Positions 18,801-27,083 of a stretch of 51,263 nt of DNA are shown here, piece by piece; position 1 is the first letter of the stretch, and every line of letters starts with the position of its first letter. The stretch lies in the sequence record PZ452599.1; one strand, written 5' to 3'. The notes below the pieces were generated by a model, which was not told where the DNA came from, did no database searches, and saw only the letters and a list, made by a program, of their open reading frames with translations. The DNA comes from a phage. Both the position numbers and the translations under genes were made by a program.

Positions 18801-19475
18801 TCAGAAGCGCGTGCTCAGGCAGTTCAGCAGCTTGACGCTAAGTTTACGAAAGAGATAAACGACCTTGACGAAGTGATCAAAACCGAAGTCGAGGCTAACA
18901 TCTCAGAAGTGAAACAGGCGATCGCTAATGAGACAGAGGCAAGGGTTCAGGCCGACCAGTCTTTAACAGCTAAATTCGGAGACGTTGAGTCAGCACTAGC
19001 AGAAAAACTTGATTCGTGGGCTAACGTTGATTCGGTTGGCGCTAAGTACGCTATGAAATTGGGCCTTACTTACAAGGGGCAGAAGTACAGCGCAGGAATG
19101 GTAATGCAGCTATCGCAATCGTCGCAGGGGTTGATCTCACAAATCCTTTTCGATGCTAACAGGTTCGCGATCATGACTAGCTCTACTGGCGGTACGTTTA
19201 CATTGCCGTTTGTAGTAGAAAATAACCAGGTGTTTATCAACAGTTTGTTGGTGAAAAACGGGTCCATTACTAACGCAATGATTGGTAACGTGATTCAGTC
19301 AAATAACTTTGTTCAGAATCAGCAAGGATGGAGGCTTGATAAAAATGGTAACTTTGAGAACTACGGAACGAGAGCGGGAGAAGGAGCTACAAAATTCACT
19401 AACGAAGGCTTAAAAGTGAAAGATGCAAATGGACGATTGAGAGTTGAGATAGGGAGAATAACCGGAAGTTGGTAA
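15897..19475 (+). CDS. tail tip / central fiber protein (lambda gpJ-like host specificity protein)
   Basis: 1192 aa from ATG 15897; NPAWVLYDLV gpJ-like motif; C-terminal IANExEAR tandem repeats; followed by bidirectional terminator. Confidence 0.85.
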   Translation: MAKYMISGSKGGGQKPYVPKEMEDNLISINKIKVLLAVSDGECDPNFTLRDLYLDDVPVIASDGTVNYEGVTAEYRPGTQTQDYIQGFTDTSSEVTVSRDITADNPYVISVTNKNLSAIRIKILMPVGIKTEDNGDLVGVRVQYAVDMAVDGGSYNEVMRDVIDGKTRSGYDRSRRIDLPKFDERVLIRVKRLTPDSTSSKVTDKIKLQSYAEVVDAKFRYPLTGLVFVEFDSELFPTQIPNISIKKKWKIINVPSNYDPISREYHGSWDGTFKKAWSNNPAWVLYDLVTNQRYGLDQRELGIQIDKWSLYEAGVYCDQKVPDGKGGTEPRYLCDMVIQNQVEAYQLIRDICSIFRGMSFWNGESLSIVIDKPRDPSYVFTNENVINGDFQYTTASEKSMYTQCNVTFDDEQNMYQQDVEGVFDTEAALRFGYNPTSITAIGCTRRSEANRRGRWVLKTNLRSTTVNFATGLEGMIPSIGDVIAIADNFQSSNLTLNLSGRVMEVSGLQVFVPFKVDARPGDFIIINKPDGKPVKRTISKVSADGKTIELNIGFGFDVKPDTVFAIDRTDLALQQYVVTTISKGDDENEFTYSITAVEYDPNKYDEIDYGVNIDDRPTSIVQPDVMEAPENVQISSYSRVVQGVSVETMVVSWDKVPYASLYEMQWRKGDGNWLNTPQTANKEIEVEGIYSGNYQVRVRSVSASGNTSPWSKIATATLTGKVGEPGAPINLTASDNEVFGIRVKWGMPEGSGDTAYIELHQSPDGTVENSSLLTLIPYPQYEYWHSTLPAGQVVWYRIRSVDRIGNVSGWTDFVRGMASDDVESVLGDILDKIFDTEAGQEIKENAIDSANKIKDQAQSIIQNALANDADVKWTRVQNGKRKAEYGHALELIANETEARVTQIEELKASIDDDIVSSIKTVQEAIANEAETRATQVQQLDSKFTKEIDGVKRDTAASIGEVRQTIANESEARAQAVQQLDAKFTKEINDLDEVIKTEVEANISEVKQAIANETEARVQADQSLTAKFGDVESALAEKLDSWANVDSVGAKYAMKLGLTYKGQKYSAGMVMQLSQSSQGLISQILFDANRFAIMTSSTGGTFTLPFVVENNQVFINSLLVKNGSITNAMIGNVIQSNNFVQNQQGWRLDKNGNFENYGTRAGEGATKFTNEGLKVKDANGRLRVEIGRITGSW
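18560..18980 (+). repeat. imperfect tandem repeats of about 123 bp (3-4 units) inside gpJ-like gene
   Basis: Repeated IANE(T/A/S)EAR...QQLD(S/A)KFTKEI units; clearest pair near 18666-18740 and 18789-18863. Confidence 0.65.
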
Positions 19476-19509
19476 AAAAAAAGGGGGCATAGCCCCCTTT
19501 AATTTTAAT
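19474..19509. terminator. bidirectional intrinsic terminator between convergent gpJ-like gene and leftward operon
   Basis: A9, hairpin GGGGGC-ATA-GCCCCC, then T-rich run. Confidence 0.7.
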
Positions 19510-20119
19510 CATAATGTGATGAATTTATAACCAAAACAGATGAAGCCGTGTAAATACCAACAGGACCAGAAGTTTGTGCAACCTGCCTAGATAAAGAATA
19601 TACCCCGTTGCCATACGCGGCAGCTTGAGACTCAAATATCATGAATCCACCTAAAGACGGATTACGCACAGAGTTTAAAGCTGTTAGTGATGGCATGATG
19701 GCGCAAGGGTATCCCAAGTTAACGTCAAAAGTGATCCCGCTTACAGATACAAGTTTTGCATCCAAAGGCTTCATCTTTCCATGATAAACCATCTCACCAT
19801 TAGCATTATAAAAAGCTATTCCGTGACTACCAGGAGGAGTAACCATATTGCTAAAAGCATAAACAAATACCTCACCTTGATTGTCTGACTTTTCTATCTT
19901 TATTGCGTGCTTCCCACCATTATTAAACTGAGTAAATGCTATGTATGATTTTGATGTTAATCTTACAAAAAAGAAGCACGGTCTATTTATTGGTATAGAA
20001 GTATTAAAAACGGTTCCTGTTCTTGCTGATATTTTCCCTTTATCTATAAGGTTAACAGGAGTGAAATCTGGACTTAACCACAATGATCCGTCTGGTTTTT
20101 TTATGCTCATCCCGTACAT
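19505..20119 (-). CDS. hypothetical protein; candidate receptor-binding protein (two-repeat)
   Basis: 204 aa from ATG 20119 (GGGGG 6 nt upstream); contains two copies of a ~60-100 aa unit also found in the upstream gene; lies between gpJ-like gene and Cor-like lipoprotein. Confidence 0.35.
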   Translation of the reverse strand: MYGMSIKKPDGSLWLSPDFTPVNLIDKGKISARTGTVFNTSIPINRPCFFFVRLTSKSYIAFTQFNNGGKHAIKIEKSDNQGEVFVYAFSNMVTPPGSHGIAFYNANGEMVYHGKMKPLDAKLVSVSGITFDVNLGYPCAIMPSLTALNSVRNPSLGGFMIFESQAAAYGNGVYSLSRQVAQTSGPVGIYTASSVLVINSSHYD

Positions 20120-20121
20120 TA

Positions 20122-20400
20122 TTACCCCCAAAAAGTATATATATATCTTGAGTCAGATCCAGAAAGTCCGCTCCATGTAACAGTATCACCGCTTACACCT
20201 AAACTTGGAGCGCCAGGATCTCCTCCGCGCCACGAACTCATTCCAACATATATTGCTTTCAACGACTTACCTGGCGGCCTGTTTGAGTAGGTCTTACTGC
20301 CAGATGATTGAGTAAATTTATCCAAGAAAAAAACTGGAGTTAAAAGGCCAGTAACATTTCTACCTTGCTCATCATATATTGCATACCCATATTCAGCCAT
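20122..20400 (-). CDS. hypothetical protein; candidate receptor-binding locus component
   Basis: 92 aa; GAGGTG RBS; start overlaps lipoprotein stop; YGYAIYDEQG motif repeated in downstream gene. Confidence 0.35.
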   Translation of the reverse strand: MAEYGYAIYDEQGRNVTGLLTPVFFLDKFTQSSGSKTYSNRPPGKSLKAIYVGMSSWRGGDPGAPSLGVSGDTVTWSGLSGSDSRYIYTFWG

Positions 20401-20674
20401 TTTTGCACCTCAAATCAATGAATTTTCTTTCATCTTGCCAACGGTTGATAAATTTAACTTCTTTATTGTCAACGCTCAACCTGTATTGCTTTTGGCTGAA
20501 TCTGTTTTCGCGGACAGCATTAATTTTAACTTCATGGAATCCGTTAACAGGGAATGTTTTAACGTTAAATTTTGCCGTGCAATCGATCTCCTTGAAGTTA
20601 CCAGTAGGCGAATAAGAACATCCGGTCAGAGCGGCTACGGTGGATATAACTGCGATTAATTTTTTCATCTTCAA
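20393..20674 (-). CDS. outer-membrane lipoprotein, Cor/Llp-like superinfection exclusion candidate
   Basis: 93 aa; signal peptide with lipobox LTGC (MKMKKLIAVISTVAALTGC); first gene of leftward operon driven by a motif-type promoter. Confidence 0.55.
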   Translation of the reverse strand: MKMKKLIAVISTVAALTGCSYSPTGNFKEIDCTAKFNVKTFPVNGFHEVKINAVRENRFSQKQYRLSVDNKEVKFINRWQDERKFIDLRCKNG

Positions 20675-22559: not shown

Positions 22560-23216
<657 letters not shown>

Positions 23217-23221
23217 TAAAC

Positions 23222-23243
23222 GGGGCGCTTGCGCCCCTTTTGT
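23222..23243 (+). terminator. intrinsic terminator / attenuator between Erf-like and ssb
   Basis: Hairpin GGGGCGC-TTG-CGCCCC followed by TTTT. Confidence 0.5.
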
Positions 23244-23259
23244 CATAGGAGAAAACAAA

Positions 23260-23712
23260 ATGCACGTTATTACAGGTGAGATCAGAAAAGAGCCAAAGGT
23301 AAAGCAAATGCCTAACGGCAGCACGCTATATGTTGTTGAGCTTTCCGAGCGATACAAAGACCGAGAGGGAAATTGGCAGTATACAAACTATGTGTTTTTC
23401 TTTAACGCGAAAACAGACGGCCTGAATGGTTGGTATGCTGAGGCTTTCCAAGTAGGAAAGGTTATTTCTGTTTCCTGCGATACCTTGCGAGTTGAAACGC
23501 GAGAATACAACGGAAAGATTTACAGCACCGTGCAGCCTGGCGGATTTGCAAACCTGCTATTTAGCCAGCGCGGAGAAAGCCAGCAACAATATCAGCAGCG
23601 AACGCAAGGAGGCTGGGGGCAACCACAACAGCAACAGCAACAAAATACTCAACAGCAGCCACAGCAAAGCAATCAGCCGCCGATTGACTTTGACGATGAT
23701 ATACCATTCTAA
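23260..23712 (+). CDS. ssb: single-stranded DNA-binding protein
   Basis: 150 aa from ATG 23260 (GGAG RBS); Q/P-rich linker and canonical acidic tail DFDDDIPF. Confidence 0.85.
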   Translation: MHVITGEIRKEPKVKQMPNGSTLYVVELSERYKDREGNWQYTNYVFFFNAKTDGLNGWYAEAFQVGKVISVSCDTLRVETREYNGKIYSTVQPGGFANLLFSQRGESQQQYQQRTQGGWGQPQQQQQQNTQQQPQQSNQPPIDFDDDIPF

Positions 23713-23715
23713 TAA

Positions 23716-23748
23716 CAAAAAGCCCCGCATATGCGGGGCATTTTTATT
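23716..23748. terminator. bidirectional intrinsic terminator between ssb and lateral fiber gene
   Basis: A-run, hairpin GCCCCGC-ATAT-GCGGGGC, T-run. Confidence 0.7.
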
Positions 23749-26047
23749 TGAGATCAACAAGTTTTGCAACCATCGACTTTAATTCGTCAACCTCACTTCT
23801 TAGCGATCGCAATTCCTCCTCCTGCTCTTTGCAAACTTGCAATATGTATGCAGTTACCGCTGAGTAGTCAACTTGTAGAAATCTTTCCTTCCCAATAAGT
23901 TCGCTACCGTCTTTTGTTGGGCCATGCAATTGCTGATAATCCTCAAAAGAACTAATAGCCTCCGGCACAACCTCCATGATCTCTTGAGCTATAACTCCAG
24001 CATAAGGCATACCATCTTTCTTTAACGTGTATGTATACCCACTAACTTTCTCAAGACCTAGCCTTGCATTTTCAATTGGTTTAATGTCAGTTTTCAAATC
24101 TCTGTCTGACCCATGGTTAAATGCTGTTGCGTTCACAGGTCCGTTAACTTGCAGGTGTTTAGAGTTATTTGAGTTTAACTGAGCATAGAACACCCATCCA
24201 GGGCCGTTATCGAAACCCCACTCAATAACCGACTGACGATCTGACCCGTTGCCCCACAACTTGAAGGTTGCCGGGTGTGACGAGTTGCCATCGTTCAGCA
24301 TTTTGAAATACTTACCACTCGGTCGGTCTATCTCCAAACTCGCCGCCTGTACATATGCTTTCCCCGCGAAATTCTTAGTTCCGAGTACGACGCCGTCGGT
24401 GATCAATTCAACCCTAGAAGACGTGATGTCGTTCAGAAACAGGGCGCTCGTTCCGGTGTCCTTCCCTAAAAACCAAAGACGTGTGCCTGCGGAGTTGTAC
24501 CCTGTTACATGCAGTGGTTGGTTGTTTGTTGACGCTGTTCCGTCGATACGAAAACCGCCATTGGCTGTTGTAACTTTAAGGCTGGGTACGGTCATAGCGA
24601 ATGCGCCACTGGCCGCAAGGCCGTTATACGCGATCAGCTTGTTGTCATACGCAAACTCACCATTGTCGCGCATTTGTAGCGCTTTCTGCGACGTCCTGTT
24701 GCGAATGCCAACATCAGATCCGCCAACAAACATCTCAACAATTCTAGACCCGCTTTTAGCTCTTACATAAGCATTAAATTCAGGAGACGACCCCGCGTTA
24801 TACAACTCGTACCATTGCGACCAGTTGCCAGTAGCAGCGTTACTAAGCCATCGCATAAAACGACGCCCGCTGCTGAATGTTGTATACGTCTGTATGCAGC
24901 TTTTAGGATCGTTAGCGCCAGTGCGCTGAACAAGTAGGCAGCCTGCCGCCTGAATGGGATAATTACGCTCCGGCGTTGCGCTGGCAGACGTGCTAGTATA
25001 ATAAAATCCAGCCTTATCGCCCTGAAGAACGTTAAGATCTTCGCTTACCAACGATGCCTGTCGCTCGTGCATTGCCTGAAGGTTTTTTCTCGCGCCCTGG
25101 TCGTTCGATGCGCCTGTCCCGCCGTCCCCGATCGCCACGTCACCGTTAGCACCCAGCTTCGCCAGTTCAATGGCGCCCACATTTCCAGATGAGCCGTTAA
25201 TCGCGGCATTGTTTCCAGCGAAAACCTTCACGCGAGATGTCTGGTAGTCAACGTTAAACGCAAAAAATGTGTCACCAGCCCCGCCGCACACCCCTGGACC
25301 ATACCTGAACGGCGTCATATCGCCAGAAGGGAACTGCGTAATATCATCGACGCGCCAGAATCCTCCTTTGACAGTATCGCGCAACCGCTTGAGCATATCC
25401 CTTACGCCAGTCGGCGCAGGTAATGTTACACCCGCATACGGCACTCTATTTTGAGCTTCTGAACTTTCAGCAGCAGCCGCTGCGCGATCAGCTTCTGTTT
25501 TAGCCTTGTTTGCACTGTTTGCAGCATTAGTTTCAGATGTTTTGGCGTTTGTCTCAGAAGTCTTCGCGGCACTAGCCGAGTTAGCAGCATTAGTTTCCGA
25601 TGTTTTAGCGTTTGTCTCAGAAGTCTTCGCAGCGCTGGCGCTTTGTTTTGCTGATTCAGCGCCTTGTTTCACCTGATTTACAAGATCTTTCAACCCATCA
25701 AGATCGAAATCTTTAAAAAATTCAAGTGCGTCAGCGATCTCCGTTTCCTTGCTTTGATAGTAACGCAGTGTTTCCGCTACGTCCTGCGCCAGCCCGTCAA
25801 CCGTTAACGAGTCATGAAGCAAGATCAGGTAATTTGTCTTTTGGACTACCGCGCCGCCAGTAGTAATTGCGCGAATGCTTGTATCGCTAATCACCTCTGT
25901 AATCACAGCAGCTTGCAAAGGTTGAGTAAGAAAGAAAATAGTTGCACCTGGGCGAATCAATGTTAATTGCTCACGCCATTTTGTATCGTAACCAGTTACA
26001 TAACCTTGCGCGTCCATAGACGCTTGGCCTTGTCTGTAAATCGCCAT
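23744..26047 (-). CDS. lateral tail fiber with C-terminal intramolecular chaperone (S74-like) domain
   Basis: 767 aa from ATG 26047 (GGAGG RBS); tandem [22 protein letters not shown] repeat; C-terminal [13 protein letters not shown] with [11 protein letters not shown]...VDYSAV resembling auto-cleaving chaperone domains of tail fibers. Confidence 0.7.
25521..25646 (-). repeat. tandem 63-bp direct repeat (2 copies) inside lateral fiber gene
   Basis: 25521-25583 and 25584-25646 are about 90 percent identical; encode [22 protein letters not shown] twice. Confidence 0.8.
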
Positions 26048-26065
26048 TTGTAAAATCCTCCTAAA

Positions 26066-26097
26066 TAGCACTTTTTGCTAATGACAATGCAGATAAT
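26066..26097 (+). promoter_or_regulatory. motif copy (variant TAGCACTTTTTGCTAATGAC) adjacent to lateral fiber start
   Basis: Plus-oriented copy whose reverse complement abuts the fiber RBS; GATAAT at 26092-26097; direction of action unresolved. Confidence 0.35.
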
Positions 26098-26112
26098 AGC
26101 ATTTTCAAGTGT

Positions 26113-26138
26113 AAAAAAAAACCCCGCATAAGCGGGGC
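26113..26138 (-). terminator. intrinsic terminator after primase gene
   Basis: Hairpin CCCCGC-ATAA-GCGGGG preceded on + strand by A9 (T-run on - strand). Confidence 0.6.
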
Positions 26139-26153
26139 AATACTAGCGGAGTT

Positions 26154-27083
26154 TTATAGCAGTGATTCAGGCTTGTAGATTTTTCTTTCTACACCCTGTT
26201 TAAAATTATCGTTAACAGGCATCATTATGTCAAGCCCTCTTTCCTCTGCCGCGATTATCACATCACGATCATCTTTCCGGCAGACTACGCGCATCCTTCT
26301 TTCTCCTTTATATCTATGCGCAACCATTTCAAGATTTGAAGGAGTAAAGCAAGCCCACACCTCTTGACCAGTTGATAAATGAACATGCTGGGAATCAACC
26401 CAATCAAGGCACAAATAGATCGTCTTATCCGTGCTACCTGTTTTAACAACAGATCCGCGCGTGTAGTCGCGAGCTAAAAACCAATCCTTTCCATCCTCAT
26501 CAATGAAAAGCACGTTACACATTTCATCATCCAGCCCGTCATCATGCACCAGGTGACAAGGTAGCGCGTGAATGTATCGACCATCCTTGACGCCGCAATC
26601 ATAATGACAATCTTCCGGCGGATATATCCCCTCATAAACGCTTAAGGGTGTGCGATCGAATTTTAATGTTTTTGCCATCACTTTTTCGCAGCATTCATGA
26701 CTTGCCTGTTTCCCGAACGAGTAGCCAGAAGAACGTGAAGCGCGTTTGTTTGCTCTGATCCTGTAATCCTGCGGCACTTTGCCGAGGAAGCGGCCCAAAA
26801 TGTTGATGGCCTCGCTGTAAGGTTCGCCAGTCAATTTCATTAACCAACCGATTCCAGTGTCGTTACCGCACACGTTGCAGATCGCGCCGCCGTCGCCCTC
26901 TTCGTTTAGCTTATCAGTCCATCTAAAACGATCCTTACCGCCGCAGTGTGGGCAAGGCTGATGCTTTTTGTTGAAAACATCGCTATGCAGTCCGCAAATG
27001 CTTTGTAGCGCTTCACGCCATAACCCCTTCATATATGGCAAAACATCTTCTTTCTGATAGGTCATAAAGTTTTCAGTATTCAT
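26154..27083 (-). CDS. DNA primase (zinc-ribbon plus TOPRIM-like)
   Basis: 309 aa from ATG 27083 (GAGG RBS); CPHCGG...CNVCG zinc ribbon; acidic TOPRIM-like C-terminal region. Confidence 0.6.
   Translation of the reverse strand: MNTENFMTYQKEDVLPYMKGLWREALQSICGLHSDVFNKKHQPCPHCGGKDRFRWTDKLNEEGDGGAICNVCGNDTGIGWLMKLTGEPYSEAINILGRFLGKVPQDYRIRANKRASRSSGYSFGKQASHECCEKVMAKTLKFDRTPLSVYEGIYPPEDCHYDCGVKDGRYIHALPCHLVHDDGLDDEMCNVLFIDEDGKDWFLARDYTRGSVVKTGSTDKTIYLCLDWVDSQHVHLSTGQEVWACFTPSNLEMVAHRYKGERRMRVVCRKDDRDVIIAAEERGLDIMMPVNDNFKQGVERKIYKPESLL

What the first reader, a model, noticed from the sequence alone, without database searches (positions are those of the whole stretch)
23744..26047. Lateral tail fiber encoded inside the replication region, with tandem 63-bp repeat and C-terminal auto-cleaving chaperone-like domain
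The 767-aa minus-strand gene sits between ssb and primase, far from the tail module. It carries a perfect-register tandem duplication (25521-25646) that could expand or contract by slippage. Its C-terminus ([30 protein letters not shown]) matches the intramolecular chaperone of fibers that is removed by autoproteolysis at a conserved Ser.
Basis: partly seen in the sequence, partly recalled or inferred. Interest (0 to 1): 0.5.

Follow-up and report, generated by a model that had tools for sequence, protein, structure and literature searches.

The report
Ordinary T1-like phage side tail fibre
This is the standard side (lateral) tail fibre gene of a T1-like coliphage, in the place where the whole phage family keeps it, with a helical stalk whose length varies between relatives and a self-removing folding domain at its end; nearly identical genes are already in the public databases, so it is ordinary.

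Summary
A 767-aa minus-strand gene (23744-26047; ATG behind an AGGAGG site) lies between ssb and primase. It contains two adjacent 21-aa copies that are identical as protein and 54/63 identical as DNA. It ends in a Peptidase_S74 intramolecular-chaperone domain (44.7 bits, cut-off 22) with Ser647 and Lys652 spaced as in endoNF, T5 pb1 and MyRF.

None of this is unusual. The window is a Warwickvirus (Drexlerviridae, T1-like) genome, 98% identical to phage Poky. The gene is 96.7% identical to the annotated tail fibre of phage JLBYU26. All five related genomes inspected show the same ssb / fibre / primase order, and the BASEL paper describes it as conserved across Drexlerviridae.

The "63-bp repeat" is part of a heptad array (A-x-x-S/A-x-x-x) in a helical stalk. 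Relatives carry 41 to 167 residues there, always in steps of 7 and mostly of 21. Copy number therefore does vary, but whether by slippage or by recombination is not shown.

Divergence from the closest relatives is concentrated in aa 321-450, a fibre "knob" fold. Self-cleavage (83 kDa to 69 + 14 kDa) is inferred, not shown. Interest is low.

The parts
23744..26047 (-). Lateral tail fibre gene, 767 aa plus stop codon
   Evidence: ORF. RBS and ATG. PHROG tail-fibre families. 96.7% nt identity to JLBYU26_83 and 91.2% to POKY_30, both annotated as tail fibre.
26056..26062 (-). Shine-Dalgarno site AGGAGGA, 8 nt upstream of the ATG
   Evidence: Sequence read directly. Invariant in 6 Warwickvirus genomes.
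26112..26138 (-). Terminator-like hairpin (GCCCCGC-TTAT-GCGGGGT) plus T9, between the primase stop codon and the fibre gene
   Evidence: Consensus scan and sequence. Conserved in relatives. Function inferred only.
23722..23739 (.). Bidirectional terminator-like hairpin between the convergent ssb and fibre genes
   Evidence: Found on both strands. Also reported as inverted repeat I1.
25808..26047 (-). N-terminal beta-rich anchor domain, aa 1-80
   Evidence: AF2 strands at aa 6-76. 5' end of the gene shared at 90-97% nt with many Drexlerviridae. Similar to the unmodelled N-terminal anchor of DpK2/Depo32 (PMC10581125). BASEL: only the far N-terminus is conserved, 'likely attached to the virion' (PMC8594841).
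25451..25798 (-). Alpha-helical stalk, aa 84-199, presumed trimeric coiled coil
   Evidence: AF2 helices at 84-113 and 116-193. The homologous part of DpK2 is seen by cryo-EM as an 'extended triple helical bundle' (PMC8552709). Weak hits to the T7 gp17 N-terminal fibre region.
25451..25660 (-). Ala/Ser-rich heptad array, aa 130-199, the length-variable zone
   Evidence: Heptad decomposition. Relatives carry 41, 55, 62, 69, 83, 104 or 167 aa between fixed flanks.
25580..25642 (-). Copy 1 of the 63-nt (three-heptad) duplication, aa 136-156
25517..25579 (-). Copy 2 of the 63-nt duplication, aa 157-177
   Evidence: 54/63 nt identical to copy 1, all differences synonymous.
24698..25087 (-). Variable knob-like domain, aa 321-450, candidate specificity determinant
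24110..24697 (-). Beta-rich distal shaft and tip, aa 451-646, the C-terminal end of the predicted mature fibre
   Evidence: AF2 short strands, pLDDT about 75-89. phrog_6578 tail fibre over aa 469-764. Weak profile hits to T4 gp34.
23747..24109 (-). Intramolecular chaperone / self-cleavage domain (Peptidase_S74), aa 647-767
   Evidence: Pfam PF13884, 44.7 bits against a cut-off of 22, aa 647-697. Sequence hits to S16 gp37, the MyRF ICA domain, GA-1 gp12 and 8HQZ_d 'L-shaped tail fiber assembly'. AF2: beta-hairpin at 698-726 and terminal helix at 728-765.
24092..24109 (-). Predicted catalytic dyad Ser647 (24107-24109) and Lys652 (24092-24094), with the scissile bond at Gly646|Ser647
   Evidence: SDRDLK motif. 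Ser invariant and Lys at least 90% conserved in 62 homologues. Same S-x4-K spacing as endoNF S911/K916, MyRF S587/K592 (PMC8326128) and T5 pb1 S1264/K1269 (PMC4690869).

Best explanation
The gene encodes the lateral (side) tail fibre of a Warwickvirus (Drexlerviridae, T1-like) coliphage.

Inferred assembly. Three chains associate, nucleated by the C-terminal chaperone domain (aa 647-767). This domain templates folding of the beta-rich distal part. It then cuts itself off at Gly646|Ser647 using Ser647 activated by Lys652. An 82.7-kDa precursor would yield a 69.1-kDa mature chain and a 13.7-kDa fragment that leaves the virion.

Inferred architecture of the mature trimer. The conserved N-terminal domain (aa 1-80) anchors it to the tail. 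A triple-helical stalk (aa 84-199) projects outward. A knob domain (aa ~321-450) and the distal tip, exposed by the cleavage, make reversible first contact with a surface glycan such as O-antigen or LPS. The gpJ-linked receptor-binding protein then binds the terminal outer-membrane protein.

Stalk length. The stalk is a heptad array whose length changes in evolution by in-register gain or loss of heptads, mostly three at a time (63 nt). The 63-nt duplication in this window is one such block.

Shown here: the domain assignments, the conserved dyad, the conserved gene order, and the length variation among relatives.

Inferred: trimerisation, actual cleavage, the ligand, and the mutational mechanism.
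For: Identity and gene order. The gene is 96.7% and 91.2% nt identical to the annotated tail-fibre genes of JLBYU26 and Poky. The order exonuclease, Erf, ssb on one strand, then fibre, primase and regulator on the other, then helicase, is the same in JLBYU26 and Poky. The shorter tonijn, tiwna and swan01 loci show the same ssb / fibre locus / primase core. Neighbour domains. The BASEL paper states that this locus is flanked by conserved, syntenic recombination and primase/helicase genes in Drexlerviridae and that only the 5' end of the fibre gene is conserved (PMC8594841). Backbone homology of many relatives stops at window 23745-23748, the gene's stop codon.

Chaperone domain. Peptidase_S74 hit above the gathering score. 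The Ser/Lys dyad is conserved. The domain matches S16 gp37, MyRF ICA and GA-1 gp12, whose crystallised chaperone fragment begins at the aligned Ser. A profile hit to 8HQZ_d 'L-shaped tail fiber assembly' has E 1.3e-15. Homologous domains end tail-fibre genes in 709 phage records. The sister Warwickvirus fibres of tonijn and tiwna also carry the domain. The mechanism is established for T5 pb1 and endoNF (PMC4690869, PMC8326128).

Stalk. AF2 predicts a helix. The homologous region of DpK2 is a triple helical bundle (PMC8552709). Heptad arrays of 41-167 aa are all in register.

Knob..
Against: No experimental data exist for this phage. Cleavage, virion incorporation and ligand are all inferred.

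The lateral fibres of T1 itself gave no density in the cryo-EM map (PMC11945409). BASEL notes that glycan binding by Drexlerviridae lateral fibres 'has never been directly demonstrated'.

The monomeric AF2 model of a trimeric fibre is only moderately confident (pLDDT 69.5, pTM 0.29), and is low around the cleavage site (aa 647-654 below 50).

The strongest variability lies in an internal knob, not at the extreme tip, so which part binds the receptor is open.
Confidence: 0.88

Rival explanations
1. The 63-bp tandem repeat is an active contingency locus. Replication slippage within this phage's population frequently adds or removes copies, tuning fibre length on short time scales.
For: Length differences in exact multiples of 21 aa among very close relatives: 746, 767, 788, 809 and 872 aa. 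All changes keep the reading frame.
Against: The two copies are only 86% identical over 63 nt (90% in the 60-nt core), and the longest identical run is 23 nt. Tandem Repeats Finder does not report the array. Adjacent AKTSETN heptads use different codons at every third position, which disfavours slippage.

Arrays in relatives differ in block composition, not only in number. Poky has the same length but different heptads. That fits unequal or inter-phage homologous recombination better. The phage encodes an exonuclease and an Erf annealing protein next door.

An identical array occurs in an independent metagenomic homologue, P0006, which implies stability.
Confidence: 0.15
2. The protein is a tailspike-type polysaccharide depolymerase like DpK2/Depo32, with which it shares its N-terminus, rather than a non-enzymatic fibre.
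For: The N-terminal 175 aa match the 7LZJ/7VYV/7VZ3 depolymerases at E 1e-60. These are receptor-binding proteins of Klebsiella phages RAD2 and GH-K3.
Against: The similarity ends at about aa 175-182. There is no beta-helix or glycosidase/lyase Pfam hit. The centre has a fibre-knob fold like the R2 pyocin fibre and short-strand shaft repeats. The C-terminus is an S74 chaperone instead of the DpK2 carbohydrate-binding module (PMC8552709).
Confidence: 0.05
3. The C-terminal domain acts only as a trimerisation and chaperone module and stays attached, so the virion carries the full-length 83-kDa chain.
For: Cleavage was not observed here. The Pfam model covers only aa 647-697. AF2 confidence at the cleavage site is low.
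Against: The Ser647/Lys652 dyad is intact and conserved across 62 homologues, with the exact S-x4-K spacing shown by mutagenesis to be required for cleavage in endoNF, MyRF and T5 pb1 (PMC8326128, PMC4690869). In T5 the uncleaved chaperone masks the receptor-binding site (PMC4690869).
Confidence: 0.08
4. The gene's position among replication and recombination genes reflects a recent, lineage-specific insertion of a foreign fibre gene into this genome.
For: The gene is a mosaic. Its central part (aa ~199-619) is about 83% nt identical to fibre genes of Dhillonvirus phages. Backbone homology breaks at the gene boundary.
Against: The locus itself is fixed. All five related Warwickvirus genomes inspected have a fibre gene in this slot, and BASEL reports full synteny of the flanks in 13 Drexlerviridae genomes (PMC8594841). 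The 5' 400 nt and the upstream intergenic region are 90-98% conserved. What is exchanged is the cassette's content, not its position.
Confidence: 0.03

Closest known systems
Tail fibre proteins of Escherichia phages JLBYU26 (UGO56456.1) and vB_EcoD_Poky (UGO52269.1), Warwickvirus, Drexlerviridae
   Same: 96% and 93% amino-acid identity. Same gene order and same domain order. The S74 domain has no amino-acid differences from either.
   Different: JLBYU26 has 105 extra residues (15 heptads) in the stalk. Poky has the same length but a different heptad composition. Both differ mainly in aa 321-450.
Bacteriophage T5 L-shaped tail fibre pb1 and the T5-like lateral fibres (8HQZ_d)
   Same: A lateral fibre of a siphovirus that makes a reversible first contact. 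In pb1 the C-terminal ~130-residue intramolecular chaperone is removed at Thr|Ser using a Ser and a Lys five residues later, unmasking the receptor-binding tip (PMC4690869). The profile hit to 8HQZ_d 'L-shaped tail fiber assembly' has E 1.3e-15.
   Different: pb1 is 1396 aa and has a different N-terminus and a bullet-shaped tip. The pb1 crystal structures were not found by sequence search. In T5 the ligand and the cleavage are experimentally shown; here they are not.
Endosialidase endoNF (phage K1F) and MyRF ICA domains, Peptidase_S74 / PF13884
   Same: HMM match above the cut-off. Ser-x4-Lys dyad. A C-terminal helix that forms the trimerising coiled coil in the known members (PMC8326128).
   Different: The upstream cargo is a fibre shaft and knob, not a sialidase beta-propeller or triple beta-helix stalk. 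Foldseek similarity of the whole model to 3GW6 is weak (E 0.018).
Capsule depolymerases DpK2 (phage RAD2, 7LZJ) and Depo32 (phage GH-K3, 7VYV/7VZ3)
   Same: The N-terminal ~175 aa (anchor domain plus triple helical bundle with Ala/Ser heptads) are highly similar.
   Different: After aa ~180 those proteins have a catalytic beta-helix and a carbohydrate-binding module. This protein has knob and shaft domains and an S74 chaperone instead.
R2-type pyocin tail fibre (6CL6, 6CT8, 6CU2) knob domains
   Different: It belongs to a contractile-tail particle with a different N-terminal attachment. It has no S74 chaperone and uses a separate assembly chaperone (from my own knowledge, not tested here).

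Membership tests
Peptidase_S74 / intramolecular chaperone auto-cleavage (ICA) domain | Match to the family HMM (PF13884) above the curated gathering score | tested here: met
   44.7 bits against a cut-off of 22, E 1.7e-11, aa 647-697, profile positions 1-56 of 58.
Peptidase_S74 / intramolecular chaperone auto-cleavage (ICA) domain | Catalytic Ser at the first residue of the domain and a Lys five residues later | tested here: met
   S647-D-R-D-L-K652. Ser invariant and Lys at least 90% conserved in 62 homologues. Spacing equals endoNF S911/K916, MyRF S587/K592 and pb1 S1264/K1269 (PMC8326128, PMC4690869).
Peptidase_S74 / intramolecular chaperone auto-cleavage (ICA) domain | Located at the C-terminal end of a trimeric fibre or spike, with a beta-hairpin 'tentacle' and a terminal trimerising helix | tested here: met
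   The domain is the last 121 aa. AF2 secondary structure: strands 698-710 and 716-726, helix 728-765. This matches the description of the pb1 chaperone (PMC4690869). It rests on prediction only.
Peptidase_S74 / intramolecular chaperone auto-cleavage (ICA) domain | Actual autoproteolytic release of the domain after trimer folding | not testable with these tools
   Needs SDS-PAGE or mass spectrometry of virions or recombinant protein. Predicted products are 69.1 and 13.7 kDa.
Drexlerviridae lateral tail fibre | Conserved N-terminal (anchor) region shared across the family | tested here: met
   The 5' 300-410 nt are 90-97% identical in many Drexlerviridae whose fibre genes are otherwise unrelated. 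BASEL describes exactly this pattern (PMC8594841).
Drexlerviridae lateral tail fibre | Locus between the recombination genes (exonuclease/Erf/ssb) and the primase/helicase genes | tested here: met
   for the window. for five relatives. S1C Fig legend of PMC8594841.
Drexlerviridae lateral tail fibre | Structural component of the virion that binds a surface glycan | not testable with these tools
   Not demonstrated even for the family (PMC8594841). The fibres gave no density in the T1 cryo-EM map (PMC11945409).
Slippage-prone tandem repeat (contingency locus) | Near-perfect DNA identity between adjacent repeat units | tested here: not met
   54/63 identical, longest run 23 nt. Not reported by Tandem Repeats Finder.
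Slippage-prone tandem repeat (contingency locus) | Copy-number variation among close relatives | tested here: met
   Arrays of 41, 55, 62, 69, 83, 104 and 167 aa between fixed flanks, all in heptad register.
Tailspike depolymerase (DpK2/Depo32 type) | Central right-handed beta-helix with a catalytic site | tested here: not met
   Similarity to 7LZJ/7VYV stops at about aa 175-182. No enzymatic Pfam domain. The centre resembles fibre knobs.

The most novel reading that the evidence does not exclude
The heptad array may act as an evolutionary length adjuster for the fibre stalk. In-register gain and loss of three-heptad blocks would change the reach of the fibre from about 6 nm to about 25 nm among otherwise near-identical phages, matching it to the thickness of the host's O-antigen or capsule layer. 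The strictly synonymous divergence between copies would be maintained by selection to limit runaway recombination. This would make stalk length a second host-range determinant, independent of the receptor-binding domains.
Probability: 0.2. Interest if true: 0.35.

Novelty: already known. Interest (0 to 1): 0.12.

Why it matters
It matters little as a discovery. The gene, its position and its domains are already annotated in near-identical phages and described for the family. Three things have practical use.

- Annotation. The gene can be labelled as a lateral tail fibre precursor with an S74 chaperone, predicted cleavage at Gly646|Ser647.
- Engineering. The conserved N-terminal anchor plus stalk, and the self-contained chaperone, mark natural junctions for swapping receptor-binding modules in T1-like phages.
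- A small, testable question. Does the stalk-length variation seen among relatives (6 to 24 heptads) affect host range?

Tried and rejected
- Tandem Repeats Finder on 23000-27000 with minimum score 30 found only a CAACAG microrepeat in ssb and missed the 63-nt duplication. The repeat had to be confirmed with the repeat finder and by translation.
- Foldseek of the full-length monomer model against the PDB gave meaningless top hits (OspA, nucleoporins; TM below 0.1) and only a weak 3GW6 match. A monomeric model of an extended trimer is unsuitable for this.
- Single-sequence and profile searches of the PDB did not recover the T5 pb1 crystal structures. The link to T5-type fibres therefore rests on the 8HQZ_d hit, on Pfam and on the literature.
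- An alignment of the primase-fibre intergenic region in six Warwickviruses, made to look for a conserved promoter, was 98% identical throughout. It cannot separate functional from neutral positions.
- Considered and rejected: a depolymerase identity, a recent insertion of the gene into the replication region, and the 173-aa plus-strand ORF at 24249-24770 antisense to the fibre gene. That ORF has no support and lies wholly inside a well-supported gene.
Full report
**1. What is in the sequence**

The minus strand carries one long ORF ending at 23744. The longest reading starts at GTG 26071 (775 aa). The ATG at 26047 is preceded by AGGAGGA at 26062-26056. The annotated homologues in phages JLBYU26 and Poky start with the same residues, MAIYRQG.

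The gene is bracketed by terminator-like hairpins. One lies after the primase stop codon (26138-26121, followed by T9). The other is bidirectional and lies between the convergent ssb and fibre genes (23722-23739).

Upstream on the same strand are the primase (Zn_Ribbon_Prim) and a Cro/YdaS-like regulator. On the other side are a PDDEXK exonuclease, an Erf annealing protein and ssb. The gpJ-like tip protein ends at 19475. The gene is therefore outside the tail module, but only 4.3 kb from it.

**2. The repeat**

Residues 136-156 and 157-177 are identical ([21 protein letters not shown]). They correspond to window 25642-25580 and 25579-25517. The DNA copies share 54 of 63 bases. All nine differences are synonymous, including an AGC/TCG serine pair, and the longest identical run is 23 nt. 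The chance probability is about 6e-24. Tandem Repeats Finder did not report the repeat.

The duplication is part of a longer Ala/Ser-rich heptad array (aa 130-199). Its neighbouring AKTSETN units differ at every third codon position.

**3. What the window is**

The first 25 kb are 98.2% identical to Escherichia phage vB_EcoD_Poky and 97.7% identical to JLBYU26, both Warwickvirus, Tempevirinae, Drexlerviridae. The fibre gene itself is 96.7% identical to JLBYU26_83 and 91.2% to POKY_30, both annotated as tail fibre.

JLBYU26 and Poky show the full order exonuclease-Erf-ssb, fibre, primase, regulator, helicase. The shorter tonijn, tiwna and swan01 loci show the same ssb / fibre locus / primase core.

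The BASEL paper says explicitly that the Drexlerviridae lateral-tail-fibre locus lies between conserved, fully syntenic recombination and primase/helicase genes. It also says that only the 5' end of the fibre gene is conserved (PMC8594841, read). In line with this, homology of many related genomes to the window stops at 23745-23748, the fibre gene's stop codon. The location is the family norm, not an anomaly.

**4. Domain anatomy**

- **aa 1-80.** A beta-rich domain. Its coding sequence is 90-97% conserved in Drexlerviridae whose fibres are otherwise unrelated.
- **aa 1-175.** These match the N-terminus of the Klebsiella phage depolymerases DpK2 (7LZJ) and Depo32 (7VYV/7VZ3) at E 1e-60. In those proteins this part is the anchor plus an "extended triple helical bundle" that was too flexible to model (PMC8552709, PMC10581125).
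- **aa 84-199.** AF2 predicts helices at 84-113 and 116-193. The T7 gp17 N-terminal fibre region gives weak hits here.
- **aa ~199-619.** This stretch is about 83% nt identical to fibre genes of Dhillonvirus phages. That is cassette exchange between siphovirus groups.
- **aa 451-646.** A shaft of short strands.

**5. The C-terminal domain**

Pfam Peptidase_S74 matches aa 647-697 at 44.7 bits (cut-off 22), starting exactly at Ser647. The motif S647-DRDL-K652 has the Ser-x4-Lys spacing of endoNF S911/K916 and MyRF S587/K592. In those proteins alanine substitutions abolish cleavage (PMC8326128). T5 pb1 S1264/K1269 has the same spacing (PMC4690869).

Ser647 is invariant and Lys652 is at least 90% conserved in 62 homologues. 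Sequence searches of the PDB hit the S16 gp37 tip, the MyRF ICA domain and the GA-1 gp12 chaperone fragment, which begins at the aligned Ser. With a profile, they also hit 8HQZ_d 'L-shaped tail fiber assembly' at E 1.3e-15.

AF2 places a beta-hairpin (698-726) and a long terminal helix (728-765) here. These match the "tentacle" and coiled coil described for the pb1 chaperone.

Homologous domains end tail-fibre genes in 709 phage records (T5-like, rV5-like, T4-like and others). They also occur in the sister Warwickviruses tonijn and tiwna. Phage swan01 instead has a three-gene locus whose last small protein has a borderline S74 hit.

The predicted masses are 82.7 kDa for the precursor, 69.1 kDa for the mature chain and 13.7 kDa for the released fragment.

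**6. Does the repeat vary?**

Yes. Between fixed flanks (…NQVKQGAES and [10 protein letters not shown]…), 26 sequences carry 41, 55, 62, 69, 83, 104 or 167 residues. Every step is a multiple of 7, and most are multiples of 21. The 26 comprise 24 database homologues, JLBYU26 and the window itself.

The window's array equals the shortest type plus one extra block ([21 protein letters not shown]). JLBYU26 has 15 more heptads. Poky has the same length but a different block (AKASENA ANASKNA). One independent homologue (P0006) has an identical array.

The mechanism is open. The imperfect DNA identity and the differences in block composition favour unequal or inter-phage recombination over simple slippage. 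An exonuclease/Erf pair is encoded next door.

At 0.148 nm per residue the arrays span roughly 6 to 25 nm. This figure is an inference that assumes a canonical coiled coil.

**7. Mechanism proposed**

Inferred from the families named above. Three precursor chains are brought together by the C-terminal chaperone. The chaperone templates the distal beta-structure and then cleaves itself off at Gly646|Ser647. The mature trimer hangs from the tail by its conserved N-terminal domain, extends a triple-helical stalk, and uses its knob and/or unmasked tip for reversible binding of a surface glycan. The gpJ-associated receptor-binding protein then engages the terminal outer-membrane receptor.

None of these steps has been shown for this phage or, for glycan binding, for the family (PMC8594841). 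No density for the lateral fibres was seen in the T1 cryo-EM map (PMC11945409).

**8. Verdict**

Every element is ordinary for this phage family and already represented by annotated, near-identical genes: the position, the S74 chaperone, the Ala/Ser heptad stalk and the mosaic receptor-binding part. Novelty: already known. Interest: low. The only mildly open point is whether stalk-length variation has a functional role.

Noticed in passing
window 23745-23748 (boundary), seen in the search with window 1-25000: Homology of several related genomes (JLBYU10, JLBYU07, JLBYU19, JLBYU01, JK16) to the window's backbone ends at the fibre gene's stop codon. The fibre gene therefore behaves as a replaceable cassette with a sharp recombination boundary at the shared terminator.
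   Followed up: partly
window 24698-25087 (aa 321-450 of the fibre): Divergence from the two closest relatives is concentrated in an internal knob-like domain rather than at the extreme tip next to the chaperone. Of 83 differing codons against Poky in aa 321-470, 33 are non-synonymous. Which part binds the receptor is therefore unclear.
   Followed up: partly
GenBank MG065636.1 / MG065637.1 (hits H3, H16), and 21 'Campylobacter' records: Records named 'Campylobacter phage A16a/A15b' carry this E. coli T1-like fibre gene at 80-85% nt identity, and such records also match the backbone. They look like T1-like coliphages, possibly contaminants or mislabelled.
   Followed up: no
L002 4517-4969 (Poky gp29): The Poky record annotates the ssb homologue as 'putative DNA primase'. 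This is probably an annotation slip, because JLBYU26, tonijn and tiwna call the same gene ssb.
   Followed up: no
window 26205-26233, minus strand: A near-consensus sigma-70-like promoter (TTGACA-17 nt-GATAAT, 11 of 12) sits inside the 3' end of the primase gene. It is followed about 65 nt later by the terminator-like hairpin and then the fibre gene's ribosome-binding site. This promoter-terminator-gene order could mean read-through control of fibre expression. The region is 98% conserved in six relatives, so conservation says nothing either way.
   Followed up: partly
L005 372-3316 (phage swan01): A sister Warwickvirus fills the same slot with a different architecture. It has a 659-aa fibre without an S74 domain, a 92-aa protein, and a 224-aa protein with a borderline S74 hit (21.8 bits against a cut-off of 22).
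   Followed up: partly
window 19505-20674, minus strand: Three small genes (208, 92 and 93 aa) lie directly after the gpJ homologue. The last has a lipoprotein signal (LPAM_1). This fits the receptor-binding-protein / superinfection-exclusion locus that BASEL describes downstream of gpJ. The terminal receptor type was not determined.
   Followed up: no
window 23626-23642 and ssb C-terminus (23209-23712): The ssb gene ends in a glutamine-rich low-complexity tract (…QQQQQQNTQQQPQQ…) containing a CAACAG x2.8 microrepeat. This was the only tandem repeat Tandem Repeats Finder reported in the region. The ssb start is also ambiguous: TTG 23209 or ATG 23260, and relatives are annotated both ways.
   Followed up: no
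window 24249-24770, plus strand: A 173-aa ORF runs antisense inside the fibre gene. It has no support as a gene and was treated as a chance ORF.
   Followed up: no
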